A DNA stretch of 64,000 nt from the human T2T-CHM13v2.0 reference genome, Homo sapiens (GCF_009914755.1 NC_060929.1), one strand, 5' to 3'. Shown: positions 20,342-59,994, numbered from the stretch's first letter. Notes: generated from the letters alone by a model not told the origin. A program made the numbers and translations.

Positions 20342-21224
20342 AACAATTTTAAACACTTGGGGAAATATAATTTGTGAATTAAATTGTTAAAAAAAGAATA
20401 CAACCAAGACGACATTTTAATCTAAAAATCTCTAAAAGGATGAAATGTGAATAGGAAATACATAGCAGTCAGAGATGTGCTGATATTCAGGAATGGAGTA
20501 AGGGTACAGGAGTGGATGCCAAAAAACTAGTAGTGAGAAATAAAGAAAATTAACTCTCAACTTTGTTGCTACAAAAGTATATGAGGTCATTTGCTGAGCA
20601 ACGAAAATGGTAGTAGTAGAGAGAATCTCACAAATCTCAGTTCAGAGTAACAATGGCAATTACCTAAATTACTTTATTATATGAATAGTTTGACTTAATA
20701 AGCACAGTCCTTAAGTTCTCATTTCACGGGAAACTGTTAGCTCACCCAATAAAATCTAACTCATTCTGTGGCACTGATCTTGTTAGATGAGCAATGCTTT
20801 GGAAAGTTTTATAGGCTTAAGCCAACGTCATTAAATACTTGCTTACTGAGTTTTTAAAGATGTATCCAGCCCCTCCTATATGTGTCATAACTAATTATAG
20901 GTTGATTTCTGGGACTTACTGAAAACTTTCTTACTGTTTTATATTCATAAACACATAAGAATCTCATAAACACATCACTGTGTATGAATTCCTTCCCACC
21001 CCTCTAAGGACACTAGCTTTTTGTTTCTAAAATCCTAGAATCTGGAAAGAAACTCACTTCAACTTGCTAATAAGCAATGTACATATATGGTTTGTAGGAA
21101 GCAGTTGTACTATTGTGCTTAGATGAGAAATATGACACAGTAGAAATACACTGAGAGGAACAGAAATGTGTAGTTTAGTAAGTAGATTGTGTAAAGCAAA
21201 AATATGTTAAAGGAGACTATTCAC

Positions 21225-25759: not shown

Positions 25760-25838
25760 ATGCAGATCTTATTTACCAAGAAGCCATCAGGTACCCTTCT
25801 GCTTTTTATTAGTGTGGCCTGTTTATTCCTCTTTGCAG
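25760..25838 (+). other. Candidate orphan SPINK-type signal-peptide first exon (MQILFTKKPSGTLLLFISVACLFLFA|G)
   Basis: accATG at 25760, open hydrophobic frame, phase-1 donor G|GTGAGT at 25839. KPSGTLLL resembles the SPINK6 N-terminus MKLSGMFLLL. Confidence 0.5.
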
Positions 25839-26357
25839 GTGAGTTTTATGGAATTCTAGACCAGACCAGTCAATGACAGAAGCTGTAACACGATTTTTTT
25901 TATGATGATGATAAAGATGGTTAATCATAGTGACTACAAATCACACTTTTAATTTAGAAGGAATTTTTATTTATAAATTAGCTCCTTTAATTTTCACTAA
26001 AATGCTGTGGAAGAGATAGCTTTATCCAATTCGAAAAACAATGTTACATGTCAAAATGAGAAGACCTGCTCTAGGTCAAACAGGCCTTTTAATCTAGGAG
26101 TCCCAGGATTAGGAGCTATGTTCCCCTTAGTAGACCACAATTAACAACATATGTTTACAGTCAAGCTTCATCTTTAAAAAAATAAATGTATATTGAATCA
26201 GAAATTCTTATCTTAAGTCACCTTCAATAAATTATTGTCTAAAGAGCTTCAACTGCTAGAATTTTGCTGAGATCCTCCTATTTTATGAATAGCTGTTGTT
26301 ATTTTTTGCCATCTGGGTAGGCAAAGTGAAGAGATGATTAGATAGGTAAGTATATAG

Positions 26358-35021: not shown

Positions 35022-35117
35022 CACGGTGGTAGTGAGCATGGTTTATTTGAAGAGCACCTACTACAGAGTTAGGCTTAACTCCACCCAACAGCCAAGTCTG
35101 AAACCACTGACGGTACC

Positions 35118-35166
35118 ATGAGGGCTTTCATTTTCTTTCTCTTCATGCTCCTGGCCATGTTCTCAG
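35118..35166 (+). CDS. MARCOL: MARCOL exon 1, signal peptide MRAFIFFLFMLLAMFS
   Basis: accATG context, hydrophobic 16 codons plus 1 nt, donor G|GTAAGA at 35167 (phase 1). Confidence 0.9.
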
Positions 35167-38100
35167 GTAAGAAAGTCACAGTCAATAGCTTTCCTTCCAA
35201 ATCTCAAAGGAAAGAATGAGAAATGTTAAGTGATTTAGCAATACTTTATCAAAAGATTTAAAAATAGGCAATCCATCAGACAGAGAAATGGAAGAAGGTA
35301 AATTTCCGACAAAATAAATGTAGATCTGGAGTCATAAAAATAGTGACTGAATGAAATCAGAGTGAATAGTTTGGTGTGACTGAAGAGAAATAGATACAAG
35401 GGAGTAGGAAAGGCAAAACATTAGACTGGAAAGATGAATTTAGACTAAGAGGCTTATGAGTTTGTGAATATGCAAGTTCATAATTTATAAGAAAATGGTT
35501 TTGTGATATGATCCTGGACTACATGGTCAAATAATAATGTGTTCAAATCTTGATGTTTTTTTCCCATTCATGTGATTTGAGGAAACTTGTTTAACTTACT
35601 TGAATCTCAATTTTCTCATTTGCAAAACGGAAATTATTATTCTTTCCTATAGAGTTATTTCGGGAACTATACAGATAATAGCTTTAGTTACCATTACTTG
35701 TGTTTTTTTAGGTACTTGACTCTCAACTTACTTTTCTCTATTCCTTACCTCAGTACAGTTAGGTGATTTTCAGATATGTAAATTTCTAGCTTTGAGATGT
35801 AAATTTCTCAAGATAATAAATGATAGTTAATACATTTCTCAAGATAAAAATTATAATAATGAAACTGATTCTAATTTATCCCCAAATCATAAGCTCCCAC
35901 TTGACCATCTTTCTTATACCTAGTGAAATGAAATAATAAAAGTAAAGTGCCTCAGACCCCCCACTTCTTATATTTGTAACATCAAAATAGTGTTTCTCTT
36001 TTCATTGGAAACACTGCAAAGCTGTTTCCGAGTTTTGAGTACAAGAGTGATAATATTCATCTTGTTAAGAAATATCAGTCTTGTGGTAATACTAAAAATG
36101 AATTAGATGTAAGAAAAGTTGTACAGTAATGCCACTGAGGAGCTGCTGAAGTAACAGAGTTAAGAAAAAAAAAGGGTGAGTTAAGAGATAGAATTAGAGA
36201 AAGGAGAACAATACGTGTATGTGTGTGTGTTTTAAAGGGGGAAAACAGATATTCAGATAAAATTCCTTTATGGAACATATATTTCATATTTCATGATGGC
36301 AGGTACTGTAACTGTTGTGACCTTCAGTGCCTTGCTAAGTGCTAGAAGGTATTTTGTGATGGAAGAAAGTGTATTATATATGCAATGATTATATATATTA
36401 GAAGATGAAGAAGAGAGATGAATCAGAAAAGCAATACTAAGCGCATCCTAGAGTTTGTAAAATCAGAAGGGAAAAAATACAAAACAAAGCTGAAGATACT
36501 TATTTTCCAAGTTTTTAGCTTAAAAAATAGATGGTGAAACCACATTATAATATCTTAATTGTCTCTTATTACTCCAAAATTCACCCTTAGTTTTTATTTA
36601 ATAAATTTACTTATCCATGTAAGAAATGATGTATTATTAGGATTTTCATTGATTCATTACTTACTTTAGCAAAAGAGGGAAATAAACTACCTGTTTATTA
36701 CTAGAACACTGGCTAAATAAATTATGATAAACCCATAAAATGGGATACTATGCAACCAATGAGGGGAAACAAATAAATATGCTCTATATGTATTGATGTA
36801 GTGAAATCTTCATTATATTGATTGTCCTTGGAGAAAACAAAGAGTAGAACTCTGTGTAGAGTGTGCCACCAATTGTGTGAATAATTATATTCATATATGT
36901 TTGTAAATACATAGGATATCCATCAAATAATTCACAAAAACCTGTAAATGTGATGGTGTCTTAGGCACTTTACTTTTACCATTTCCTAGGTAATAGGAAA
37001 TAATTATGTCGTAGTTAGGAAATTATTTTTGTGGGGGGTTTGGAGTGGGGGTACAGACAGGAAAGAAAAGGAAAGTAATTTTAAACTGTTTACTCTTTGC
37101 ACCTTTAGGATTTGGCCCCATTTACTTGTGTCACCTGTTAAAAAAACTGAAAGTCATTAATAAAAATATGTTACCAACTCTTTTTTCCTATTTCTTCCAC
37201 ATATCTACTTTAATTTATTTCTACTTGGTGTTAGCAACTGTTAATGAGCAATGTTTTATTCCTAGAACTGAAAGAATCCATACATGTACTCATCTCTCAG
37301 CTAAAAAAAATTATTTTTTCTCATTAATTTCTCTGGTTGAATCTTATGTTTCTTATGTACCTCCTCCTCCAGGAAGAAAAAAGGATTCCACACTCTCTGC
37401 TACCTTGATTAGGAGACTATTGTCTAGTTTACTCCTCACGTGATAGCATTGATCATTCTACTATAATATAAAGTCCTACTTATTTGCCCCACTACTAGAC
37501 TTCTCAGCTTCATGTGAGCAGGGCCGTGAATGTCTTGTTCATTCCTAGCTCTTTCTAAGCTTCTTTTATAATAACAAATTATTTAAATTTATATTTTTTT
37601 GTTAAATTGAATGAATGGCTAAGTTATACTCACAATCCATATCCACACTATACCACAGTTTAGTTAAGCAGGTTGCTAACTGCTAAGCTTCTGTGTCTTG
37701 ACTAGGACCTTAATCACCTGCAGGAGTATACCATAGCATGCTCAGTGCATACCAATTGACTATCATTTGACTTTGCTTAAATTGACTTGAAGGTATAAAT
37801 GTGTATATTTATGGAAATATAAAGCAGAGCAATTGAAAATTCAAGTGAGACCCTAAGTATACATCTGAAATAATCAACATTGGAATGATTTAAAATTGCG
37901 TATATTGAAAAAAATACCAAAAAAAACCTATGCAGAAAACAAAATGTAAGCCTAATTAAAATCTTTAAGAGAACCCCACATTAGGAAAGTGAATAAAGAA
38001 AGAGGAATTATCAAGCAAGAAGGAAAGGATGAGAAAAATATACACTTCTACCAAAAAAAAAAAAAAAAGGAAAAGAAGCATAGCCCAATGCAATACTCTT

Positions 38101-38971
38101 GTACTTAGCTCTAAAGTCATTCCATTTGTTTATTTATTGTTTTTTAGATCCTGCTCATTATGGAATATAATCTGAAAAAACATAAAACATATACACATAC
38201 ACACAATTACATATATTTCATTAGGGCATAGGTGGGCTTCCAAAATAAGTTGGAGAAGCTATAAAACACAGGGTTTAAGAAATAATCGTGATATTTACCA
38301 TTCTCTTGAGCAATTTGACCAAAATAGAAAGAAGAAATATAACCACCAGAGAGAGCATGATTGATCCTAAGGCCTTTTGTTGGAAATGGTGAACATAAAG
38401 CTGATTGAAAGACACATGTTCTGAAGGAGAAAGGAAACATCTGTTTTAGGGATGGAAATGGAAAGAAAGATGGCTACAGATAATATGTATAGAGATGGAA
38501 GTGAGAAGAATAAAGTGGGGCTCACGTCTGCCAGCCTTTTCCTGTCTGGAAAGTTGATGGCGTTATCCGTAAAGTGAAGCTGGAAAATTAGGAATAAAGT
38601 ACTTGGTGTGAAAAAATAAGTTTATAATGAGCATTGAGCAGAGCCAGTTTGATTCATCAGAAAACCATTTAAAGGAATTGGGGGTAGAATGAAGTCTCAA
38701 TTCAAATAATTCAGACTTTATGATTTAGAAATGGGGCAAGTTGGATTGATCCTCTAATTTTTGAAATCCATATAGTACAGTAAAGAAAACAAAGGAGGAA
38801 CCCAAATATTCAGGATATGAGGAAGAACGAGAAGATTCTATCTTGGGGCTTGGTTAAAAAATCAAGAAAGCATTAAAAACATACTATATCTTGGACAAAT
38901 GTTGTTGATTTAAAATTATTTAATGTATATAACTTTATTTTCATTTTTTTCTGGTTGTGTTATTATTCCAG

Positions 38972-39780
38972 CATCTTCAACCCAGATTTCAAATACCAGT
39001 GTCTTCAAACTAGAAGAGAATCCAAAACCTGCACTTATTCTGGAGGAAAAAAATGAAGCTAACCATCTAGGAGGACAAAGAGATTCTAATAAGCAAGGAG
39101 GTAGTTATACACAAGGAAATCCAGGAACGTTTAGGCTTCAAGGACTACCAGGCTATTTTAACAAGCTAGAGAAACCAAGACATTTTAAGCAAGGGAGAGC
39201 AGGAGTTTTAAACCAGCCTGGGATTTTAAAGAATTCAGGAAAATCTAACCAAAAAGGGAATCCAGAATCTTCTAATAAGCAGGAAAACTCAGGATCTTCT
39301 AGCCAACTAGGGAGACCAGGGATTTCTACCCAACAGGGAAATCCAGGGTCATCTGACCAACAAGAGAAACCAGGGTCATTTAGCCAGAAAGTGATGGTGG
39401 GGTCATCTAGCCAACAGGGGAAGCCAGGATCATCTAGCCAACACGGGAATCTAGGGTCATCAACCCAGAAAGGGAATTTAGGATCTTCTAGCCTACAAGG
39501 GCATCTGGGTTTATCTAGCCATCAAGGGAAGCCGGAGTCATCTGGCCAACAGGGGAAGCCAGGGTCATCTAGCCAGCAAGGAAATCTAGGAACTTCTGGC
39601 CAACAGGAGAAGCCAGGATCTTCTAGCCAACAGGGGAAGCCAGGGTTGTCTAGCCATCAAGGGAAGCCAGGGTCATCTAGCCAACAAGGAAATCTACATT
39701 TATCTAGCCAGCAAGGGAATCAAGGACCTTCTAGCAAACAGAGGAAGCCAGGTTCATCCAGCCGTCAAGGAAATCTATGA
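38972..39780 (+). CDS. MARCOL: MARCOL exon 2 coding part: secreted Gly/Ser/Gln/Lys/Pro 9-aa repeat protein (spliced product 285 aa)
   Basis: Acceptor ttattccAG at 38970-38971, phase 1 (G+CA = Ala). 49+809 = 858 nt = 285 aa + TGA. Sequence ASSTQISNTSVFKLEENPKP...RQGNL recognised as MARCO-like protein. Confidence 0.9.
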
Positions 39781-40074
39781 TTATCTAGCCAGCAAGGGAA
39801 TATAGGATCTCCTAGCCAAAAGGAGAAGCCAGAGTCTTCTAGCCAACAAGGGAATCTAGGGTCATCTAGCTATCAAGGGAAGCCAGTGTCATCTAGCCAA
39901 CAAGGGAAGCCAGTGTCATCTAGCCAACAAGGGAAGCCAGGGGCATCTAGCCAGCAAGGAGATCTAGGATCTTCTAAGCAGCAGGGGAAGCCAGGATCAT
40001 CTAGCCAGCAAGGAAATATAGGGTCATCTGGCCAGGAATGGAAGCCAGAGCCATCTAGCCATCAGAGAAAATTA
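39238..40074 (+). repeat. 27-bp coding tandem repeat, 31 units in unbroken register (consensus GSSSQQGKP / GSSSQQGNL)
   Basis: Units recur every 27 nt from 39238: 20 before the TGA at 39778 and 11 from it onward. Confidence 0.92.
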
Positions 40075-41758
40075 AGGTCATTTTACAACCAACGACAAAG
40101 AAAAAATATCGACAGCACTTTTGATGGCAATATAACGGACTTTGAGGTTAGTGCTAATAACTTCTTTTTCTCAGTCAACTTGACCCAGCAATTCTCTTTT
40201 CCAAGACTTAAAATGCTTTAAAAACCACAGTGTGTTAATGAAAAGTCACTTGCAATGACACTGATCAAACAAAATGAGAAGAACTTTGGAGCTGATTATT
40301 TTCATGCATAACACTTATGATTATTAATGAATGTACTGCCCTTCTATTCTTTCATTTCCCTCTATTATTTTCCACTCAAACCTCCCTACCTATACTAGAA
40401 TAACTCAGATCCTCATCAACTGAGCCCACATCTTTGCCAGGTTTAACTTTCATGTCCATTTTTATCCCATCCGTAATCTATAAATCACTGAAGTAATATT
40501 CCTAAATCAAAAATCCTCTCTGATATTTTAGACCCCTGCTTGAAATTCCCCAGTGGCTTCATACTACCTAGAAGATGTAACTTAAACTCCTAAACATAGA
40601 ATTTACAGATTTTCATGATTATACTGCATACTGTTTAGCCTCATTTCATGTCACTGTTGCTCACACACCACCCATGTCATACAGAGCCCTTTGATTTTCC
40701 ACTCATGTATTCCTAATACTAATGATTTCCTCTATTATTAAACTCACCTTAACACTTTGTAATTGTCTATTATCAGCTAGATAATGAACTTCTTGAAGAA
40801 AGTACCATGTATCCCCAGAACCTAGAATAAGTGTGGCATGTAGTAAGTTCTCCTGAACTGCATGTTAGATGGATAGATTAATGCCTGCTACTTGGAAGCT
40901 ACCATTTCAAATAGGTGAACATATCTGATCCACATGTCTCCTGTATTCCCTTTTGAATCCTGCTGCGCTTTTACTTTCACTTGCCTGCCTCTCTTCCAAC
41001 AATCGGCCTCCTGATTTATTTAACAATTGCTTTGAATACTCCGTTTGATACTCACATTCAAAACAGTTTTCTAGAACACTATCTTATCATCTTAATGGAA
41101 ACCATTTTTTTACCTCATAAATTTTCATTCCTCACAAGCCTTCCAGATGAAAGTCATTTGTTCTCTTAGTCATTATCAGTTGGCTGGCATGAAGTAGTAA
41201 TCTCTCAGAGAGACTCCCTACCATTCAGTTCTTAATGCCATCACCAGCAGGTCTCTGAGTTTTTAGGATGTCACTTAAATTTTTGCAATTTTATATTTAT
41301 TCTAGAATAGGAGAAATAACCATGTCCAATTAACACAGTATGTGTGAAATAAATTGATCGTTATGAAAGGGTTGTATGATTTGGAAAATATGAAGGTTTT
41401 TTTTATCTCCCTACAACATCTCAGCTCTGAGAATTCCACATCCTCTATTAAAAATGTCTCATCATTCTCATTAATGACTCTGTTCTCACCTGCTAGTCAA
41501 AGGGTACTTATATTCACAGGCTTCTGCCATTTAGCTCACATCCAAAGAAAATGCATCAGGTATTATTTAAATAAATCCTGCATAATCCTACTTCCTGTAT
41601 AATTTTTTTCATGGGCATACCAAAAAAAGGAAATCAACAAATTATGACTGTATGCGTTTTGCATTTGCTTGTGTGACTTTTCCCTGACTATTGTTTGTCC
41701 AGGTAGAGGAAGAATTGCCTCCAGAAAATTAAAATGGAGGCAGTCTGACATATAGTAA

Positions 41759-45250
<3,492 letters not shown>

Positions 45251-48200
45251 ATGTGGCCTCTTGTGTCCAACTTCTTTCACTTAGAAAGATGTTTCTGAGG
45301 TTTATCCATGATGTAGCATGTGTCAGTAGTCCCATTCCGTCCCTGGACCCACTCTCTCTCACACACCTCTCTGTAGTTCTAACCAACCAGGAATCTAATG
45401 TCTGTCTCTATAATTTTGCCACAAACTCTTGTATTCTTATCAAGATTTAGTAGAGTTTTAGGAATAAATATTTCTCCATTTGCTGTATGCCCTCAGGACT
45501 GTTTTCAGAAACAAAAATATTTAAACAGAATTTTCATCAATTAAATGCTTGTTTCACTGGGAAGAGAGTCCTCTGAATTGTTCACATTACCATTCCACCC
45601 ATTGTGGTTTTTATTTGCTCCTTCCAAATGACTAATGCTTCTGATTGTTGTCTCATGTGCACACAACCATTTCTAAATCTTCATAGTAAAATGCCTGTTC
45701 CTATCTTTTGCCAATTTTTTTTCATTTGTCTTCTTATTACCGAGTTATATGGGCTGTATTTCATTGTACTCTATTTTTGTTTACCAGATATGCTACTTGT
45801 TTTTATCACATCGAAAATAGAAATAGGAGTTTTTTTCCTAACTATTAATCTCTTTAATGAGATTAAGGTCTTAAAAGAAAAGTACTTTTCTTGAAAGATT
45901 TACTTCTTTATTCCTCATCTTTTGATATTTTGCATAAATTTTTCACTAGAATCAGCTCTTCTTTTCTAATGCTTTTCTTGTGTTTGAATTTTTTTCAATT
46001 GAGGGTCAACCTTATAAAATTTTCCCATCATGGGTGGTCTCTTTATTGATTCTGGCACCATTTTAAGCTAGAAATAGAGGCACTGGCAACTAATGGACAA
46101 TTTGGGCTTATTTCTCATTATTGTCTCTTTTACAACTTTTTTTCTCTATACCGGAAAAAACATACAGGTATTCAATTTATATTATCAAGCTCAGTGATCA
46201 TCTACCCCTCACCACCTGGGGTTCAATAAAGGTACTCATACGTGAGAAGAAGGAAAATGCCAAGATGGGCGTCACCAGGAAAGCTCTGGTCATTTCTGGG
46301 ATTCAACTATTTGGCCACCATCCAGGGACCTGCTCCTTAAGGCCTGTAAGGTTGTTGGCAGTTATCACCTCACAACTCTATATTCAGACCATCTTTCCAA
46401 ACACAATATTTCTGGGATTTCTTTCAGTCTTATCAGTCACTTGACCAAGGCAAAGAGGTGATATATGGAATGATATCAGAGGGAACTCAGCGGTCAGAGA
46501 TGGAGAACAATATCTAGAGAACAATAGGGAATATTACACTGCCAATACTTTTGTTTTTCAATATCAAAAGAAAGTTGACCATATAACCACTACTCCATTA
46601 ATCACAACAGAATTTAATAGCAAACAAGCAATCAAGATGTGTTTATCATGCAAATCTTGGAAGTGAAAAGACTTTTCATCTTTATTGTATAGACACGGAA
46701 AGAATTCTCTTAAAGCCTTTTGCTTTAAGGTATTTAATTTTTTCCAAAAAAAATGAATTAACCTATCAAGTTTAATAATTTAAATTAGTTTATGTAAATA
46801 CATCAGGACAAATAAAAAGTACTATTAAATTCAAACAATTCAATATTCAAGATAAAACAGTAAACAGAAAAAGTATGTTTCAAAAAAATTTAGGAACTAT
46901 CTCCTAGCTATGTAAGTTTAATCAATTAAAAAGGCAAAAACTTATCTAATGAGAACTATAAACAATATTATATATAATATATATACATGTGTATATATAT
47001 GAAGGTATATATACATATATATTCATATACATGCATGCATAAGTATATATACATGTGAGTGTTACAAAACTCTTTACTTACAGCATTTTTTAAGTAAAAA
47101 TTAAGTATAATAATTTTATGACCAATGTTTTAAAAATAAACCACTGAAATATCTAGCATATATTAAGCTATTAATATATGCTTTGATTTTTTTTAAGTTT
47201 AAATCTTTCAGTTAAATGCTAGTATTTTCAATTGTAATATATAATCCCTCTTTGAGCAATTAATTTACTATTTGTTCTAACTAAGGTTTCATAACTCCTA
47301 GATATATCTTACTCTTGCCCAGCTCATATAAAGGCTATAAGAAAGTTTCCTACTGGACATCAGATGAGATCAAACTGTCAACTTCACCAGAATGAACCAG
47401 AATATTTCTATTAAATCAATGTATGTCAATTTTATTTGATTATCCAAATAATTTCTGTCCTTAAACTTTTAAATTTTATTTGTTCTTATGATTATAGTCA
47501 TTAAAATATTTGTCTTCTAGTGATACCATGAGTTCTTATTATTTAGCTTCAACCTGTAAGTGAGAAAATGTGGTATTTACTTTTCTGTTCCTGCATTAGT
47601 TGTCTAAGGATAATGCCCTCCAGCTCCATCCATGTTCTTGCAAAAGACATAATCTCATTCTTTTTTATGGCTGCATAGTATTCCATGGTGTATATGTACC
47701 ACATTTTCTTTAATCTGTCATTGACAGGCATTTAGATTGATTCCATGTCTTTGTTATTGTAAATAGTGCTACAATGAATATATGCATGGCTGTGTCTTTA
47801 TGATAGAATGATTCATATTTCTTTGGGTACATACCCAGTAATAGGATTATTGGGTTGAATGATAGTTCTGTTTTTGGCTCTTTGAGAAATCACCCACTGC
47901 TTTCCACAATGATTAAACTAATTTACACTCCCACCAATGGTGTATAAGTATTCCTTTTTCTCTGCAACCTCACCATCGTCTGTTATTTTTTGACTTTTAC
48001 ATAATAGCCATTCTGATTGGTGTGAGATGGTATCTCATTGTGGCTTTCATTAGCATTTCTCTAATGATAGGTGAGATTGAGTTCTTATGCTTGTTGGCTG
48101 CGTGTATAGGTCTTCTTTTGAAAAATGTCTATTCATATCCTTTGCCTACTTTTAATGGGGTTTTGGTTTGTTTGTTGTAAATTTGTTTAAATTCCTTATA

Positions 48201-48361
48201 GATACTGGCTATTAGTCCTTTGTCAGATGCATAGTTTGCAAATATTTTCTCCTATTCTGTAGGTTATGTTTACTCTGTTGATAGTTTTCTTTGCTCTGCA
48301 GAAGCTCTTAAGTTTAATTAGATCCCACTTGTCAATTTTTGCTTTTGTTGTGATTGCTTTT

Positions 48362-48511
48362 CTATTTGATGTTTTATTTTCAATAATGAATTGTTTGAAT
48401 TTAATTGTACTTTTTATTTGTCCTGATATATTTGCATACTAATTAAAATTATTAAACTGGACAGGTTAATTCATTTCTTTGGAGAAAATTAAATACCTTA
48501 AAGCAAAAGAC
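48362..48511 (-). other. 150-bp inverted copy of 46715-46867 inserted with a 14-bp TSD
   Basis: Reverse complement aligns over its whole length to 46715-46867; flanked by ttgtgattgctttt at 48348-48361 and 48512-48525. Confidence 0.88.
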
Positions 48512-48625
48512 TTGTGATTGCTTTTGACGTCTTTGCCATGAAATCTTCGCCTGTACCTACGTCCAGAATAGTAGTGCCTAAACCCCAAGTCCTCTAGGGT
48601 TTTTATAGTTTGGGGTTTTACATTT

Positions 48626-51515
<2,890 letters not shown>

Positions 51516-54500
51516 TAAATCTTTACTCCATCTTGAGTTGATTTCTGTCTATAGTATAAAGAAGAGGTTCAGTTTCAATCTTCTCCATGTGGCCAACTAG
51601 TTATTCTAGCACTATTTATTGAATAGAGAGTCCTTTCCCCATTGCTCGTTTTCATTAGCTTTGTTGAAGATCAAATGGTTGTACATGTGTGGCCTTATTT
51701 TGGGGCTCTCTATTCTGTTCCATTGGTCTATGTGTCTGTTTTTGTACCAGAATCATCCTGGTTTGGTTACTGTAGCCCTGTCATACAGTTTGAAGTCAGG
51801 TAACATAATGCCTTCAGCTTTGTTTTTTTTTTGCATGGGTTGCCTTGGCTATTTGGGCCCATTTATGGTTCCATGTGAATTTTAAAATCGTTTTTTCTAG
51901 TTTTGTGAAGAATGTCATTGGTAGTTTGATAGGAATAACTTTGAATCTATAAATTGCTTTAGATAGGACAGCCATTTTAACAATATTCACTCTTTTTATA
52001 AATGATCATGGCATGTTTTTCCTTTTTTGTGTGTGTATCATCTCTAATTTCTTTGAGAAGTGTTTTGTAATTCTCATTGTAGAGATCTTTCACTTCCATG
52101 GTTAGCTGTAGTCCTTGGTATTTTATTCTTTTTGTGGCAGTTGTGAATGGAATTGCATTCCTGATTTGTCACTCAGCATGACTGTTTTTCATTTATAGGA
52201 ATGCTAGTGATTTTTTATGTTGATTTTGTATCCTGAAACTTGGCTGAAGTTGTTTATCAGCTGAAGGAACTTTTAGGCCAAGACTATGAGATTTTCTAGG
52301 TACAGAATCATGTCATCTGAAAACAGGGAGAGTTTGACTTTTTCTCTCTTCCCATTTGGATGCCCTTTATTTTTTTCTCTTGCCTGATTGCTCTGGCCAG
52401 GACTTCCAATACTGTGTTGGATATGAGTGGTGAGAAAGGGCATCCTTGTCTTGTGCCAGTCTTCAAGGGAAATACTTCCAGCTTTTGTTCATTCAGTATG
52501 AGTTTGGCTATGCGTTTGTCATACATCCTTCTTATTATTTTAAGGTATGCTCCTTCAAACTTAGCTTTTTGAGAGTTTTTAACATGAAGTGATGTTGAAT
52601 TTTATCAAAAGCTTTTTTGCATCTATTGAGATAATTTGTGGGTTTTGTCTTTAGTTCTGTTTATGTGATAAATTATCTTTATTGATTTATGTACGTTGAA
52701 TCAACCTTGCATCCCAGGATTAAGCCTACTTGATCATGGTGGACTTGCTTTTTGATATACTGCTGGGTTTTGTTTACAAGTATTTTGTTGAGGATTTTTA
52801 CATCAATTTTCATCAAGGATATTGGCCTGAAGTTTTCTTTTTTTGTTGCCTTTCTGCCAGGTTTTGGTATTAGGATGATGCTGTCCTCATCGAATGAGTT
52901 GGGGAGAAGTCCCTTCTCCACAATTTTCTAGAATAGTTTCAGCAAGAGTGGTACCAGCTCTTTGTTGTACAACAGGTAAAATTCACCTGTGAATCCATCT
53001 AGTCCTGGGATTTTTTTGGTTTGTAGGCTATTTATTACTGATTCAATTTTGGAGCTCATTATTGGTCCTGGTTCAGTCTTGGGAGGGTGTATGTGTCCAT
53101 TTCTTCTAGATGTTTAGTTTGTGTTTATAGAGTGAACATAGTACTATTATATTGACATTTTTCTTTCTGTGCGATCAGAGGTAACATGCCCTTCATCATT
53201 TTTAATTGTGTTTATTTTGATGTTCTCTCTTTCTTTCTTTATTAGTCTAGCTAACAGCCTATCTATCTTAGTGTTTAAAAAGAAACCCAACTCTCATATT
53301 TGTTGATCTTTTGAATGTTGTTTTGTATGTCAATTTCCTTCAGCACAGCTCTGATTTTGGTTATTTCTTGTCATCTGCTAGCTTCAGAACTGATTTGTTC
53401 TTGCTTCTCTAATTCTTTCAGCTGTGATATTAGGTTGCTAGTCTGAGCTCTTTCTAACTTTTCAATGTGAGCATTTAGTGCTAAGAATTTTCCTCTTATC
53501 ACTGCCTTAGCTGTACCCCAGAGTTTCTGATACGTTGTATCTTTCTTCTCATTAGTTTCAAAGAGCTTCTTTATTTCTGCCTTAATTTTATTATTTACCC
53601 AAAAGTCATTTTGAGAGTATGTTGCTTAATTTCCATGTAATTGCATTGTTTTGAGTGATCTTCTTAGTCTTGACTTGTATTTTTATTGTGCAGTGGCCCT
53701 AGAGTGTGTTTGTTATGATTTTGGTTCTTTTGTATTTGCTGAAGATTCTTTTATGTCCAATTATGTGGTTGATTTTAGAGAATGTGCCATGTGGCAATGA
53801 GAAGAATGTATATTCTGTTGTTTTCAGGTGGAGAGTTCTGTAGAAGTATATCATATCCATTTGGTCCAAAGTGGAGTTCCAGTCCTGAATATCTTTGTTA
53901 ATTTTCTGCCTTGATGATCTGCCTAAAAACTGTCAGCAGAGTGTTGAAGTCCCCACTATTATTGTGTGAGATTCTCTGTCTCTTTGTAGGCCTCTAAGAA
54001 TTTGCTCTATGAATCTTTGTGTTCCTGTGTTGGGTGCATATATAGTTAGGCTAGTTAGGTCTTCTTGCTGAATTGAACCCTTTACCATTATGTAATCCCC
54101 TTTTTTTGTCTTAGTTAATCTTTATTGGTTTAAAGTCTGTTTTCTTTGAAATTAGGGTTAAAACCATTGCTTTTTTCTGGTTTCTTTCATTTCTTTATTT
54201 GGAGTCTGTGGGTGTCATTGCATGTGACATTGGTCTCTTGAAGACAGCATACCATTGGGTCTTGCTTTTTTATCCATCCTGGCCCTCTGTGCCTTTTAAA
54301 TGAAGTATTTAGCACATTTACATTAAAGGTTAGTATCGATATGTGTGGATTTTATCCTGTCATTGTGTTGCTAGCTGGTTATTATGCTGACTTGTTTGTG
54401 TGGTTGGTTTGTAGTGGCAGTGGTCTGTGTGCTTAAAGGGTGTTTTTGTATAGACTGGTAACAGTCTTTTCTTTCCATATTCAGTGCTCCTTTCAAGATC

Positions 54501-57339
54501 TCCCGTAAGGCAGGTTTGATGGTTAAAACAAAACAAAAACAAAAACAAAGAACCTCCCTCAGCATTTGCTTATCTAAAAACAATCTCATTGCTCTTTGGC
54601 TAAGGAAGCTTAGTTTGCGTAGATATTAAATTCTTGGCTTAAGAATTTTTCTTTAAGAATGTTGAATATAAACTCCCAAACTCTTCTGGCTTATAGGGTT
54701 TCTGCTGAGCAGTTCACTGTTAGCCTAATGGGCTTCCCTTTGTAGGGAAATGGCGGCTTTTTCTTGCTAGCTGCCTTTAACATTCCTTTTTTCATTTCAA
54801 CATTAGAAAATCTGGTGGTGATGTGTCTTGAGGATGATCTTTTTGTGTAGAATCTCACAGGGTTTTTCTCTGTTTCCTGAATTTGACTATTAGCTTCTCT
54901 AGTGGGGCTGGAGAAGTTTTCGTGATGATATCATGAAATATGTTTTCCAAGTTGTTTGCTTTCTTCCTGTCCCTTTCAGGGATGCAAATGATTCACAGAT
55001 TTGTCTTCCTTACATAATCCCATATTTCCCAGAGTTTTTGTTTCTTATTTTTTATTCTTTTATCTTTATTTTTGTCTGACTGTCTTATTTCAGAAAACCA
55101 CTCTTTAAGTTCTGATGTTCTTTCCTCAGTGTGGTCTATTCTGCTGTTAATATTTGTGATTGCCTTGTGAAATTCTCATCCTGTAGTGTGTTTTTTGCTC
55201 TATCACATGAGTTAGATTATTTTTTAAATCGGCTGTTTCATCTGTCAGCTCCTGTACACTTTTGTTGTGATTCTTAGTTTCCTTGGATTGAATTTTGGTC
55301 TTCTGCTGAATCTTGATGACCTTTTCTGTCCAGATTCTGAATTATATTTCTGTCATTTCTCCAGATTCTGGAGAGTTCACAAGGACCAGGGGCCTGGAGA
55401 CAGCAAGACAAGTGTTGTGAAACAGCAAAGACCACAACCCACCCCTCCTACTTGAAGCTCCAACCCAGGGAACTGCAAAGCTACTACTGGTTTGATACCC
55501 CTGGTTGGGGGAGTGGCTGGAGACTCAGCCCAGGAAGGATCCACCCAGTGAGAAGATATGGGATAGGGGACCCACATAACAAATAGTCTGGCTACCTTTG
55601 TGTAGGGCTGCTGCAGTATGCTGGGAGTCCACCACACTCCCTAGTCACCTCAGATTTTCCAGTATCTGAAGGTATCAACAGTGAAGGCTGTCAAACAGCA
55701 AAGATAGTGGCCTGCCCCTCCCTCTGAAAGCTCTGTCCCAGGGAGGTATGGACATGTTGTCAGCCCAAACACACCTGCAGGATGTGGCTGGAGACCCCAG
55801 TCAAGAGAGGCCACCCAGTGAGGAGAAACAGGATTGGGAAACTGCATAAACAGGATTGGGAATCTGGCTGCATTTTTTGTAGTGCATCTGTGCTGCACTG
55901 GAGGCCTACTCCAGCCTCCAGTCACCTCAGACTTTCCAAAGCCCAAAGGCAAGAACAACTAAGGCTGTCAAACATCACAGATGGTTATCTGTCCCTCCCT
56001 CTGGGAGCTTCATCCTAGGGAGGTATGCAATCACTGTCGGCTGGAGTTTGGATGACTGGAGACCCCAGGTGGCGATTTTGGCCAGTGAAGACAAATGGGA
56101 TCTGGGTTCCATGTGAATAAGCAGTCTAGCTGCCTCTCCATAGAGTTCCTGGGCTATGCCCTGGGACCACTCCAGTTCCTAATTGCCTTGGACTACCACT
56201 TCTTTGGGTTGGGGAAGCTCCCTTGGCTCTGGGTCACTCCTGGGAGGATTGTCATCCTGCCTTGCTTTTCTCCCTTCCCCATGGGTTATTTCTTTGATGA
56301 GTCCCAATGTGTGTACCTGGATCTTTCAACTGAAGGTGCTATATTTATTATTACTTGTCCCTTCCCTTCATGAGAGTGGCACACATTAGCTCCTTCTAGT
56401 TGGCCATCTTGGCCAACCTCCTTATAATTGTTTATAGTTTCATATTTTCTTTTTCTCTCTCAAACTCTACAAGTACTTGACCAAAGGATGAAATTTTTAA
56501 TTTGGTTTTAACTTTATTAATTTGAATTTTAAATCAGCAGCAGAAAAAGCTGAGCCCTGGGGCAGAGTGCATGACATTTTTATGTGTGAGGATTATCTGG
56601 AAAGAGGGGGCTTATAGTGAAGAGAGAGTCAGAAGCTAAAGGTTCCTGTCTTGCCTCCCTATATGTTTAACATGTAATAGGTGAAATTTCCCTCCCTACT
56701 TTGAGCCTTCTGCTCCCCCCATGTCCAATGAAATTAACCTCGATTAGGGCTCTCAAATTTTTATTCAGCAAAACAATCCTTTCCTCAAATAAATCATCCT
56801 CAAAACACCTGTATATATAACAGATTAATATGCCTGAGAGATGAGGGTCAGGCTGACTTTGGATGAGATTGGAATCTTACAACTGGATACTTTTTTCACA
56901 CCTAACACACACTCTACTCCACCCACAATGCTTTCACAGATTTTTTTGTAGTCATTTTTGTATTACTGTTTTAGATTTGGCAGACTAGCTCTAACCTTTT
57001 ATATTTCCCCTCTTTCCTTTTTCCTTCCATTTGAAACATGGTATGTCTAAGAAACTTAACACTTTTTTTTAAATTGTATTAATTTAAATCTAAATTTAAA
57101 TTGTCACAGGTCCTTTGACTAGTGACTACTGTGTTGGATGTGCAGGTCCTCAGTTCATCACATGAAACTGAGAAAGGGCACAAGCTTTATTTCTGAAAGC
57201 TTTTTTTCTGAAAGCTCTTTCCTGAGACACTCCTGCTCTACTGTGCCTCCTGTAGTCCTGGTAGGCTAACTCTCTTCTGCTTTTCCTCCTTTTACAACTG
57301 CTGCTCTCAGTTCCCAGAACCTGAGTTTATTCTACTCCA

Positions 57340-57492
<153 letters not shown>

Positions 57493-57729
57493 GAACCCCA
57501 TCATTTTTCTGCTGTTTTTCAATCATAGGTTGCTTCCAGGTCCCATCTGCTCTTGCATATGGAGCCACTTCTAATTCTTGAATTTCTCAAATACCTCACC
57601 TGTTACAATTTCTTGTGTTTTCCTATCATTTCAATTCTCATTTCTTCATCTTCTCTTGTCTCCCATTGTATTCTTCTTCAAAAAATGTTCTCACAGCTTT
57701 ACTCTTTATACACCCTCAAAATCTTAAAA

Positions 57730-58236
57730 TGGGGTCTTAAAATAGAAATCATAAGGCTAAAATAACAGATTCTTATGACAATAAGATCCAAATTCTAAAC
57801 ATGACCTAAGGCCATGCCAGACAAGGGTCAAATCATACACCCCTACAGGTCACTCTGACCCAGTGTATTGGTTAACAGACTTCCTGATTTTAACTTAAAC
57901 ATTCATTTCTGCTGACTCCATATATTTAGACTAAGCTTTATTCCTTTAGCCAATAGCAAATTAAATAATTTCTGAAACCACATATGACCTGTAAGCCATT
58001 TCAAGATATCCAATCTTTTAGGCCAAACCAATATATACAGTTCATGTATTAATTTATGACTTTGCCTGTAACTTCTACTTTCCTAAACTGTAAAAAACAG
58101 AGTTGTGACCTAACTGCCTCAAGACATCACACTCAAGGCTTCTTAGGTTTGTGTTGCCCTCTGGCTGTGGTCACTCATGTTGGCTCACAATAAACCTCCC
58201 TAAAATATTTTACATCGTTTGGGTTTTCCCTGAACA
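57730..58236 (+). mobile_element. ERV1 solo LTR (MER34/MER39-group-like)
   Basis: 3' end ggtcactcatgttggctcacAATAAAcctccctaaaatattttac..gggttttccctgaaCA is typical of this LTR group. 5' boundary approximate. Confidence 0.7.
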
Positions 58237-58701
58237 AGTCAAGTAATAAGAGTGCTCCCTACTGAATTAATAAATATATAAGTATTTTGCATCACTCAAT
58301 TTATTTGAGAAAAGAAGATATTTTACACTGAATATTGCCTTAATCACTCTTCCATTCAGGAGTCCTAGTGACTTCTTCATTGTCTAAATTTCAATCTAGG
58401 GAACATGAGGATGGTAGCCTAAATTTATTGAACACTGATTATTCACCAGGCCTTGCAAAAAGTGTTTTAAATCTGTTATTACACTTACTTTTCTCAAAAC
58501 TAGTTTGAAAAAATACAGTTCTCTTCTCTTCTTTCTATATGAGAAAACTGAGGTTTGAAGAGGCTAAAAATGTTTCTTAATTCCAGAAAGTTGGTTAATG
58601 ATGGTGCTGTTCCTGACCTCATTCTTCTGACTTTAGAGTCCATGTAATTACTTGCTGCAGTCTACAATATGGGTATGTGAAAACTCCTTTTCTCCTTGCA
58701 G

Positions 58702-58827
58702 CTGGATTGTGAGAAATATAATTCAAGGCACAGGAACATCTTGACATTCTGAGCTAATCCTCATCTCTGTGTGTGGTACAGATAGAACAAATCAGGATAA
58801 TCCTAGCCAACTGTCCATGGAAATCAA
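58702..58827 (+). pseudogene. Decayed Kazal-domain exon (SPINK exon-3 type)
   Basis: Acceptor ctccttttctccttgcAG; LDCEKY, then after a 1-nt shift GTS*HSELILISVCGTDRTNQDNPSQLSMEI; phase-2 donor AA|GTGAGG at 58828. Confidence 0.72.
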
Positions 58828-59994
58828 GTGAGGATATTAATAGGAGTATGATGTACAGTATAGGCTAATTATGCATGTCTACTTAGAATTCTTGCTTTTT
58901 AGAGCAGGAAGAGAGCAAGTCAACCACCCCATTTTACAGATGGACACACTGAGCTCCAGAGAGGGAAATGATTCCTTACTCATATTCCTTACTCATAATG
59001 ATTCCTTACTCATGTACATTAGAACTAGATCCCAGGTCTGCTGACTCCCAATCGAGGGCCCAAGTAGTATTGAGGTCTGCATCATGAGACAGTCAACTGT
59101 CAGGTTGTGGACCTGAGACACAAGGTGCATTATATTTCTACTGAATGTAATCTTAATCTCATCAGATTGTCTAAATATAAATTCTTTCCTTTTTCAGTGA
59201 TTTTGTCATCTGTGGCAACTTAGTTTCCTTCTTTTTAGCTAACCTTGGGAGTGACTTTGGCTTATGATGACTGTATTTTCTAAGCCTTTGACAGAGACAG
59301 TTCGTGTGTCCATGATTAAGCCATAAAAAGGCTTATTGGTGTCAGTCACATTCAGCATGAGTATACTCTCTGACCTTCTTTGTTTGAGGAGTATTTTGGA
59401 CTAGAAGTTCTTTCTGGTGTTTTCTTTTGAGGCCTCCCAGTTTCTCTGACCTATCCTGCTCCTACCTCGGAAATTTCTCAGTTGACTGGATCCTTTCTCT
59501 TCCTCTTCTCCAACCCCTGCTGACTGTATGCTCCACTACTATGACACCAATTCTGTCCACTTTCTTCCTTATTGATATGAATATACTAACTTTAAGCCCT
59601 CTGCCTCCAATGGGTTCAGTTTTTGAGAAATTCAGAAACCCCAAAAGCAACCACGTGTGGCCAAAGCCATTTTCTCCATCAAATTATATGTTAGAACAAA
59701 ATATTATATTAAGAGTCCTCCATAATATTAGAGGAAAGTTTTCACCCTCATTTAAGCAGATAACCTTAATATGTCCAATCTTCCAGAGAAAGAATTCTAA
59801 TAAAAATGTAAAGTGGGAACAGATGAGAACCAACTTTTATACAAATTAGTAAGTTTTATGCTTTTGTATTTGTACCTAACTCATTACTAAAATTTTTAAG
59901 TGAAATCTGTAAGGTTTCTATTTGTGTCAGTCTATATGTTTATACATGTTTGCTATGTATATCTGACATTTTTCTACCCCCAGATGGTATTGTC

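What the first reader, a model, noticed from the sequence alone, without database searches (positions are those of the whole stretch)
35118..58833. MARCOL appears to be a truncated SPINK-architecture gene: signal exon, giant Gln/Lys repeat exon, lost Kazal domain
Seen: the MARCOL signal exon ends in phase 1. Exon 2 starts in phase 1 and, ignoring one stop, ends at a phase-0 donor (GAG|GTTAGT, 40147). A decayed Kazal exon (phase 0 in, phase 2 out) follows at 58702. These are the SPINK6 intron phases (1/0/2), but exon 2 would be 1175 nt instead of 23. About 12 kb of the 18.5-kb gap is L1. Inference: the ancestral product was a ~460-aa secreted protein with a Gln/Lys-rich repeat tethered to a Kazal inhibitor, a Kazal analogue of trappin/elafin, where a transglutaminase-substrate cementoin repeat anchors a WAP inhibitor to matrix or cornified envelope.
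Basis: partly seen in the sequence, partly recalled or inferred. Interest (0 to 1): 0.9.

Follow-up and report, generated by a model that had tools for sequence, protein, structure and literature searches.

The report
MARCOL: a SPINK gene minus Kazal
Human MARCOL is the front part (signal peptide plus a long Ser/Gly/Gln-rich repeat) of a gene that in many other mammals ends in a Kazal protease-inhibitor domain, but the decayed Kazal exon 18 kb downstream is most likely debris of a different, long-dead SPINK gene copy.

Summary
MARCOL exon 1 ends in phase 1. Exon 2 (38972-40146, 1175 nt) has one in-frame TGA and otherwise runs open to a phase-0 donor. SPINK6 is 1/0/2.

The main inference is supported. 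Of 24 named mammalian "MARCO-like" models, all non-primate, 20 carry a C-terminal Kazal domain directly after the repeat. The human post-stop tail aligns in frame with their exon-2 ends.

The link to 58702 is not supported. The orthologues' Kazal exon is a conserved form with only four cysteines. No copy of it is detectable between exon 2 and SPINK13.

The 58702 exon is a genuine Kazal relic of another type, with a canonical first cysteine and SPINK9-like spacing. It shares about 800 nt, introns included, at about 69% identity with a second relic between SPINK7 and SPINK9. That relic scores above the Pfam Kazal cut-offs. It has weak matches to its own first and last exons in the right order.

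The transglutaminase ("trappin-like") idea is untested. Searches of the held paper library found nothing on MARCOL's structure.

The parts
35118..35166 (+). Coding part of the MARCOL signal exon (49 nt, ends in phase 1)
   Evidence: A SPINK exon-1 DNA profile built without MARCOL hits 35111-35172 at E=0.029, second best in the window.
38972..40146 (+). Ancestral extent of MARCOL exon 2 (1175 nt, phase 1 in, phase 0 out). The annotated CDS stops at 39780.
   Evidence: The tail 40033-40146 aligns in frame with orthologue exon-2 ends (E 8e-9 to 3e-4).
39236..40061 (+). Tandem array of 27-nt units, 30.6 copies, coding consensus KPGSSSQQG, with a 108-nt higher-order period
   Evidence: The units stay in register. 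The 18 units before the stop match the consensus at 6.50/9 and the 9 units after it at 6.78/9.
39778..39780 (+). Premature TGA at the Gly position of a repeat unit (NL*LSSQQG). It is one base away from the Gly codon GGA (inference).
40147..40152 (+). Conserved phase-0 donor GTTAGT, now 40 nt beyond the annotated transcript end
   Evidence: The rabbit and hamster models (and probably the pangolin one) read through this point into intron, beginning 'VS' or 'VE'. The rabbit read-through aligns to human 40171-40278 (E=0.003).
40147..58701 (.). Gap that holds no recognisable copy of MARCOL's own Kazal exons; at least 10,951 of 18,555 nt are interspersed repeats
   Evidence: tblastn, 20-orthologue HMM, frameshift-tolerant protein-to-DNA alignment, repeat match.
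58702..58827 (+). Relic A: a decayed canonical Kazal exon 3. C2 is now TGA, C4 and C5 are now Ser, and there is a 2-nt deletion in the C2-C3 loop.
58240..59055 (+). Block paralogous to relic B (chr5:148856287-148857060), covering both intron flanks and the exon
   Evidence: blastn gives 69.5% over 275 nt (E 6e-39) plus 4 colinear pieces. B is the only substantial partner genome-wide; the other three matches are 40-46 nt. JC distances are 0.41 for the exon and 0.39 and 0.36 for the flanks.
25778..25838 (+). Decayed SPINK-type signal exon (ATG now AAG, 61 nt, phase 1, donor CAG|GTGAGT, TATAAA 25 nt upstream). Either a dead alternative first exon of MARCOL or a relic of a neighbouring gene.
   Evidence: nhmmer E=1.9e-5, the best hit in the window. 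BLASTP gives 10/18 identity (pairwise E=2e-6) to the N-terminus of the ferret MARCO-like model P0014.

Best explanation
MARCOL is a member of the 5q32 SPINK cluster. At the position of the SPINK micro-exon 2 (23 nt in SPINK6) it has a 1.2-kb exon. That exon encodes about 104 unique residues followed by about 30 copies of a 9-residue Ser/Gly/Gln-rich unit (KPGSSSQQG).

In many other mammals, as predicted gene models, the gene continues through a phase-0 intron into two Kazal exons. The product there is a secreted protein made of a disordered repeat and a C-terminal Kazal domain. That domain keeps cysteines 2, 3, 4 and 6 and has lost the 1-5 pair. It has Ser at the presumed P1 position.

In the human genome the gene is truncated.
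- A TGA, one base away from a Gly codon, ends the frame inside the array.
- The rest of the exon is still open and still homologous up to the old donor.
- No recognisable copy of MARCOL's own Kazal exons is left in the 26 kb before SPINK13. They were deleted or overwritten; this is inference.

The human product is therefore the signal peptide plus the repeat without an inhibitor head. It is either a relic on its way out or a matrix or cross-linking protein in its own right.

The Kazal-like exon at 58702 is genuine, but it belongs to an older lineage of SPINK7/9/2-type pseudogene pieces. It is either what remains of a stand-alone SPINK gene or a fragmentary copy of the dead gene between SPINK7 and SPINK9.
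For: Orthologues:
- 20 of the 24 named mammalian hits (31 hits in all) carry Kazal_1/Kazal_2.
- The six orthologues I scanned give Kazal_1 E values of 4e-14 to 9e-12 at the extreme C-terminus. Neither part of human exon 2 gives any Kazal hit.
- The exon-2/exon-3 junction is the same in all of them. The human tail aligns up to 40146.
- The three models that end at this junction without a Kazal domain read on into intron.

SPINK kinship:
- Exon 1 is found by a SPINK exon-1 profile.
- All seven signal exons examined end in phase 1.
- The orthologues' Kazal exon 3 is 55-68% identical to human SPINK9, SPINK7 and SPINK1. Their exon 4 is 60-67% identical to SPINK6.
- The best solved relatives are ovomucoid third domains.

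No human copy of MARCOL's own Kazal exons: searches gave no hit above noise in 40147-66500.

Separate origin of the 58702 exon:
- It ranks first or second in the 26-kb region for 5 of 9 canonical human Kazal exons. It is never in the top 4 for the 5 MARCOL-orthologue queries.
- Its colinear paralogy with relic B includes the introns.
- Relic B scores 26.2 bits for Kazal_1 (cut-off 21).
- Relic B has exon-1-like (E=0.047) and exon-4-like (E=0.063) pieces in the right order.
- The exon is as diverged as the introns.
Against: - All orthologue evidence comes from predicted protein models. I saw no transcript and no non-human DNA.
- No primate proteins appeared in the database, so I cannot date the loss.
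- No first, second or last exon belonging to relic A was found.
- Relic B's exon-1 and exon-4 matches are individually weak.
- Homology between A and B stops abruptly at 58240 and 59055, so A may never have been part of a whole gene.
- Gene conversion of a primate MARCOL exon by a neighbouring gene is not excluded.
Confidence: 0.68

Rival explanations
1. One reading: the 58702 exon is MARCOL's own former exon 3, so the human locus still holds the decayed inhibitor domain 18.5 kb downstream of the repeat exon.
For: - Strand, order and phase fit. The exon enters in phase 0, and the ancestral 128 nt would leave it in phase 2.
- No SPINK-like signal exon lies between 40147 and 58702. The best plus-strand hit there has E=20.
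- The acceptor and donor of the exon are intact.
Against: - The orthologues' exon 3 is shared by Glires and Laurasiatheria, so the primate ancestor should have inherited it. It lacks C1, has C2 at position 15 rather than 17, and is about 122 nt by residue count. It matches 58702 at 5 of 40 positions (my own alignment of the sequences). By contrast the neighbouring exon-2 tail is 46-72% identical.
- 58702 is never among the top hits for orthologue queries.
- It is a paralogue, introns included, of a relic that sits away from any MARCOL-like exon.
- No last Kazal exon follows it.
Confidence: 0.15
2. MARCOL never had a Kazal domain. On this view the non-primate models are run-on predictions that fuse MARCOL to a neighbouring SPINK gene. 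All SPINK introns share phases, which would make such fusions easy to predict.
For: - Only predicted models were seen.
- 11 of the 20 Kazal-bearing models have aberrant ends after exon 3.
- One cat model is fused to a trypsin-like protease (PF00089), and one kangaroo-rat model starts with a piece of another Kazal exon. Over-extension by prediction pipelines therefore does happen at this locus.
Against: - The same junction recurs in 20 species. The hits come from more than one source (ncbi, uniref, eukprot, nr).
- In these models exon 2 has no stop before its donor.
- The human donor is conserved, and the frame is open up to it apart from the one TGA.
- The Kazal part has a distinctive and conserved four-cysteine form that none of the human SPINK exons I examined shows.
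- No model shows a separate signal peptide in front of it.
Confidence: 0.07
3. The similarity of 58702 to Kazal exons is chance.
For: Taken alone it is weak. nhmmer gives E=0.023. Pfam gives no hit. The protein-to-DNA scores are only at the level of the shuffled-query maximum.
Against: The block aligns to relic B at E 6e-39 and 9.6e-25 in the whole genome, with no other substantial partner. Relic B passes both Pfam Kazal cut-offs and scores E=1.1e-7 with the SPINK exon-3 DNA profile.
Confidence: 0.03

Closest known systems
SPINK6, SPINK7 and SPINK9 (single-domain Kazal inhibitors of the same 5q32 cluster)
   Same: Same strand and same cluster. All have a phase-1 signal exon. The intron after exon 2 is phase 0 in SPINK6 and MARCOL (not checked for SPINK7/9). 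The orthologues' Kazal exons are 55-68% identical to SPINK9/7 (exon 3) and 60-67% identical to SPINK6 (exon 4).
   Different: Exon 2 is 1175 nt instead of 23 nt and encodes a repeat. The orthologues' Kazal domain lacks cysteines 1 and 5 and has Ser rather than a basic residue two places after C2. The human gene has no Kazal exons at all.
Trappin-2/elafin (PI3) and the trappin family (description recalled, not tested here)
   Same: The overall layout is a signal peptide, then a short-unit repeat containing Gln and Lys, then a small disulfide-rich canonical protease inhibitor at the C-terminus.
   Different: The inhibitor is Kazal, not WAP. The unit is 9 residues (KPGSSSQQG), not the trappin hexapeptide. 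The repeat has its own exon. Cross-linking by transglutaminase is unproven.
LEKTI (SPINK5) four-cysteine Kazal-like domains (recalled)
   Same: These are Kazal-derived domains that function with two instead of three disulfides, encoded in the same gene cluster.
   Different: As I recall, LEKTI domains lack a different cysteine pair. LEKTI is a chain of 15 domains without a low-complexity repeat.
Ovomucoid third domain (PDB 1yu6, 1ct0, 1cho and others)
   Same: It is the best solved sequence relative of the dog orthologue's C-terminus (E 4.5e-12 to 1e-8, residues 305-346). The alignment includes the reactive-loop scaffold and the YGN motif.
   Different: Ovomucoid has all six cysteines. Ser at the aligned P1 place occurs only in an engineered variant among the hits.
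MARCO / collagen (the source of the gene's name)
   Same: The repeats are rich in Gly and Pro. The Pfam Collagen model scores 24.0 bits on the human repeat and 30.6 and 32.5 bits on two of the six orthologues.
   Different: The human score is below the 27.2-bit cut-off. Gly falls on only two of every three triplets (KPG SSS QQG), so there is no continuous Gly-X-Y run. Pfam reported no scavenger-receptor domain. The name is a misnomer.

Membership tests
Kazal-type inhibitor domain (Pfam PF00050/PF07648) | Profile match above the curated cut-off | tested here: not met
   Human MARCOL exon 2, both before and after the stop, gives no Kazal hit. All six orthologues scanned meet it: Kazal_1 at 45-53 bits against a cut-off of 21.
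Kazal-type inhibitor domain (Pfam PF00050/PF07648) | Six cysteines forming three disulfides (connectivity recalled) | tested here: not met
   In the exon-3 part, all 20 orthologue domains keep C2, C3 and C4 and lack C1 and C5. C6 lies in exon 4 and is seen in the 9 complete models.
SPINK gene architecture | Signal exon ending in phase 1 | tested here: met
   MARCOL 49 nt. SPINK1, 6, 7, 9, 13 and 14 are 55-70 nt, all phase 1.
SPINK gene architecture | Second exon entering in phase 1 and leaving in phase 0 | tested here: met
   1175 nt from 38972 to 40146, counting through one TGA. SPINK6 exon 2 is 23 nt.
SPINK gene architecture | Two Kazal exons (phase 0 to 2, then the last exon) belonging to the same gene | tested here: not met
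   In human, no copy of the orthologues' exons 3 and 4 was found in 40147-66500. In the orthologues this is inferred from proteins only.
Trappin-like anchored inhibitor | WAP four-disulfide core domain | tested here: not met
   Pfam reports only Kazal and Collagen on the orthologues.
Trappin-like anchored inhibitor | The repeat is a transglutaminase substrate | not testable with these tools
   Only composition can be stated: Gln-Gln and usually one Lys per 9-residue unit.
Collagen / MARCO-like | Continuous Gly-X-Y repeats and an SRCR domain | tested here: not met
   The human Collagen score is 24.0 bits, below the 27.2 cut-off. No SRCR hit. The unit KPGSSSQQG breaks the triplet rule.
Kazal exon (the 58702 relic) | Homology to a sequence that itself passes the Kazal profile | tested here: met
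   The relic itself has no Pfham-level match: no Pfam hit in either frame. Its paralogue relic B scores 26.2 bits (Kazal_1) and 24.4 bits (Kazal_2). A and B align at E 6e-39.

The most novel reading that the evidence does not exclude
In most placental mammals MARCOL encodes a 'Kazal trappin'. On this reading the Gln/Lys-bearing repeat is cross-linked by transglutaminase into an epithelial or seminal matrix, and it holds a two-disulfide Kazal inhibitor with an unusual Ser at P1 in place. The human lineage has discarded the inhibitor head and kept, and enlarged, only the anchor. Human MARCOL would then be a free cross-linking or decoy substrate, and one tethered protease inhibitor present in other mammals would be missing from human tissue.
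Probability: 0.22. Interest if true: 0.75.

Novelty: new variant of a known kind. Interest (0 to 1): 0.58.

Why it matters
A human protein-coding gene with an uninformative and misleading name gets an identity. It is a SPINK-family gene whose inhibitor domain is missing in human but present in dog, horse, deer, bats and rodents.

This has several consequences.
- It adds a previously undescribed architecture (a low-complexity repeat plus a Kazal domain) to a cluster that matters for skin and mucosal protease control.
- It gives a concrete hypothesis to test, namely a matrix-anchored inhibitor.
- It points to a lineage difference between humans and common model or veterinary species.
- It is a caution for annotation. 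This interval holds at least two unannotated SPINK relics in the window and a whole dead SPINK gene nearby. A phase-compatible Kazal exon downstream is therefore not proof that it belongs to the gene upstream.

Tried and rejected
Searches for MARCOL's own Kazal exons in human all found nothing above noise:
- tblastn with 9 orthologue C-termini
- a 20-sequence HMM against the six-frame translation of 40001-67000
- a frameshift-tolerant protein-to-DNA alignment

Weak candidates that I looked at and dropped:
- 46278-46333, which resembles SPINK6 exon 4 (tblastn E=0.11). It has no stop after the Cys and a poor acceptor, and the exon-4 DNA profile does not find it.
- 45295-45321, 45360-45420 and 46640-46700.
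- 59644-59694 as a last exon for relic A. Its score of 30 compares with a null of 25.9 +/- 2.8, it has no in-frame acceptor, and nhmmer does not find it.
- 66425-66460, which lies just upstream of the SPINK13 start codon.
- 26000-26046.
- 44432-44453, which lies inside the repeat-matching block 41906-45106 and looks like L1 to me.

Other negative or uninformative results:
- Homology between SPINK6 exon 2 with its flanks and the ends of MARCOL exon 2 is not above shuffles. There is a 9-nt identity, GTGTCTTCA, in the same codon frame, and a similar donor.
- A database search for an intact relative of the 58702 exon found no candidate sharing words.
- phmmer with relic B against 1.84 billion proteins gave mostly multi-Kazal proteins. 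It also gave one unnamed 145-aa entry, 80% identical, that also lacks the first cysteine and runs on past the exon end.
- A search restricted to the N-terminal region found only two voles.
- The MARCOL exons have no paralogue elsewhere in 137 kb.

I estimated repeat content by blastn instead.

Literature:
- Six searches gave only mineral-oil 'Marcol', author names and what look from their titles like gene-list papers (not opened).
- I read passages of two papers, and both were author-name matches.
- For all other papers I saw the search listing only.


Full report
**What is in the sequence**

The window is human chr5:148738001-148802000.
- MARCOL exon 1 codes from 35118 to 35166. That is 16 codons plus one base, with donor CAG|GTAAGA.
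- Exon 2 begins at 38972. Read from phase 1 it runs 1175 nt to GAG|GTTAGT, with GT at 40147.
- It contains one stop, TGA at 39778-39780, followed by 122 further open codons.
- SPINK6 in the same window has exons of 58 (coding part), 23, 116 and 46 nt. Its intron phases are therefore 1/0/2.

**The repeat**

- Tandem Repeats Finder reports a 27-nt unit in 30.6 copies at 39236-40061, with a 108-nt higher-order period.
- In protein terms the units stay in register, with consensus KPGSSSQQG.
- The stop falls on the Gly position of one unit.
- The 9 units after the stop match the consensus as well as the 18 units before it (6.78 against 6.50 of 9).
- The composition is Ser 27%, Gly 19%, Gln 18%, Lys 7%.
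- Pfam sees only a sub-threshold Collagen match, and no scavenger-receptor domain was reported. The name 'MARCO like' reflects composition, not kinship.

**Orthologues**

I searched a database of 5.8 billion proteins with the read-through of exon 2, placing X at the stop. It returned 31 hits.
- 24 are named 'MARCO-like' or unnamed models from non-primate mammals: deer, sheep, serow, reindeer, dog, bear, hyena, cats, mustelids, horse, four bats, beaver, voles, kangaroo rat, rabbit, hamster and pangolin.
- 20 of these 24 carry Pfam Kazal_1/Kazal_2.
- The other 7 hits come from short unnamed contigs.
- No primate protein appeared, even in a search restricted to the unique N-terminal 105 residues. 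I therefore cannot date events within primates.
- In nine models the protein ends with a complete Kazal domain (239-346 aa). Eleven others have the first Kazal exon followed by aberrant ends.
- The six orthologues I scanned give Kazal_1 E values of 4e-14 to 9e-12 at the very C-terminus.
- The best solved relatives are ovomucoid third domains.

The human tail after the stop aligns in frame to the orthologues' exon-2 ends. It is 72% identical to the vole over 25 residues (E 8e-9), and the alignment to the dog runs up to residue 40146 (E 3e-4). The three models that end at this junction without a Kazal domain simply read on into the intron. The rabbit extension aligns to human 40171-40278. The donor at 40147 is therefore an old, conserved exon boundary.

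**SPINK kinship**

- A DNA profile of six SPINK signal exons, built without MARCOL, ranks MARCOL exon 1 second in the window (E=0.029).
- The orthologues' Kazal exon 3 is closest to human SPINK9, SPINK7 and SPINK1. Their last exon is closest to SPINK6.
- The domain is unusual. All 20 models lack cysteines 1 and 5, and the residue two places after C2 is Ser in 18 of 20 and Pro in 2 (one search list). That this position is P1 is recalled from ovomucoid work.

**MARCOL's own Kazal exons are not found in human**

Three methods found nothing above noise on the plus strand between 40147 and the SPINK13 start codon (extended coordinate 66587):
- tblastn
- a 20-sequence HMM
- a frameshift-tolerant protein-to-DNA alignment with five queries

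At least 10,951 of the 18,555 nt up to 58701 are interspersed repeats.

**What the 58702 exon is**

It has an intact acceptor and donor. It reads LDCEKY... up to a TGA at the C2 place, and then, in the next frame...CGTDRTNQDNPSQLSMEI.

Taken alone its Kazal signal is weak:
- nhmmer gives E=0.023.
- Pfam gives no hit.
- It ranks first or second in the 26-kb region for 5 of 9 canonical human Kazal exons, at scores near the shuffled maximum.

A genome-wide Pfam scan drew my attention to a second relic at chr5:148856739-148856855, between SPINK7 and SPINK9.
- That exon, relic B, passes both Pfam Kazal cut-offs.
- It scores E=1.1e-7 with the SPINK exon-3 profile.
- It has an exon-1-like piece 4.9 kb upstream (E=0.047) and an exon-4-like piece 1.2 kb downstream that ends Cys-stop (E=0.063). 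All are on the plus strand and in the right order.

Relics A and B are colinear paralogues over about 800 nt that include both intron flanks.
- Identity is 69.5% over 275 nt (E 6e-39), with four further pieces.
- Each is the other's only substantial partner in the human genome.
- The comparison shows that A has a 2-nt deletion in the C2-C3 loop. The ancestral exon was therefore 128 nt, with the same cysteine spacing as SPINK9 exon 3.
- Exon and intron flanks are equally diverged, with JC distances of 0.41 against 0.39 and 0.36. I see no sign of constraint since the split, although 126 nt gives little power.

The orthologues' exon 3 is shared by Glires and Laurasiatheria, so it should have been present in the primate ancestor. 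It has no C1, is shorter, and matches the 58702 exon at only 5 of 40 positions (my own alignment). The adjoining exon-2 tail keeps 46-72% identity. I therefore read 58702 as debris of another SPINK lineage.

There are caveats:
- I found no first or last exon for relic A.
- A-B homology ends abruptly at 58240 and 59055, so A may be a fragmentary copy and not the remains of a whole gene.
- I had no non-human DNA.

**How it most likely works**

Shown:
- the architecture of the gene
- the Kazal membership of the orthologues' C-terminus
- the human truncation

Inferred:
- The orthologous protein is secreted.
- Its repeat is disordered.
- Its Kazal head is a canonical-loop inhibitor held by two disulfides.

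The repeat has Gln-Gln in nearly every unit and Lys in most. It is equally compatible with a Ser-rich, glycosylated, mucin-like spacer. I could not test either.

The human product would be the repeat alone. Its annotated 3' end, at 40106, sits in a genomic A-run. The first canonical poly(A) hexamer after the stop is at 40737, so the true transcript end is uncertain.

**Literature**

Six searches of the held library returned nothing on MARCOL's gene structure. I saw search listings, plus passages of two irrelevant papers. Two of the identifiers used were recalled from memory. Subscription journals and supplements were not covered.

Noticed in passing
window 25778-25838 (+): An unannotated, decayed SPINK-type signal exon with the start codon changed to AAG, a phase-1 donor and a TATAAA box upstream. 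It is the best hit of the SPINK exon-1 profile in the window (E=1.9e-5). It is 10/18 identical to the first exon used in the ferret MARCO-like model. It may be a dead alternative MARCOL promoter or a relic of a neighbouring gene.
   Followed up: partly
outside the window: chr5:148851822-148858141 (extended coordinates 113822-120141), loci L017/L014: An apparently complete but dead SPINK gene between SPINK7 and SPINK9, not listed in the annotation supplied with the finding. Its pieces are an exon-1-like stretch, a Kazal exon 3 with a stop and lost cysteines (above the Pfam cut-offs), and an exon-4-like stretch ending Cys-stop. An unnamed 145-aa database protein is 80% identical to the exon. It also lacks the first cysteine and runs on past the exon end.
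   Followed up: partly
window 20730-20778 (+): A 49-nt stretch resembling the C2-C3 loop and CGTD core of a Kazal exon (22 of 27 nt identical to SPINK6 by eye; nhmmer E=0.06). It sits at the edge of the RefSeq CAGE cluster and enhancer. It could be chance or a third relic.
   Followed up: no
window 46278-46333 (+): A weak resemblance to the last SPINK6 exon (tblastn E=0.11), in unique DNA between MARCOL exon 2 and the 58702 exon. It is not confirmed by the DNA profile and is left unexplained.
   Followed up: partly
window 40070-40106 and 40737: The RefSeq transcript end falls in the genomic run GAAAAAA, with only an AATTAA 30 nt upstream. The first canonical hexamer (ATTAAA) after the stop is at 40737. 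The annotated 3' end may be an internal-priming artefact.
   Followed up: no
proteins P0012, P0005, P0014: Some 'MARCO-like' models are clearly over-extended. One cat isoform is fused to a trypsin-like protease. One kangaroo-rat model starts with a piece of another Kazal exon. The ferret model uses the upstream alternative first exon.
   Followed up: no
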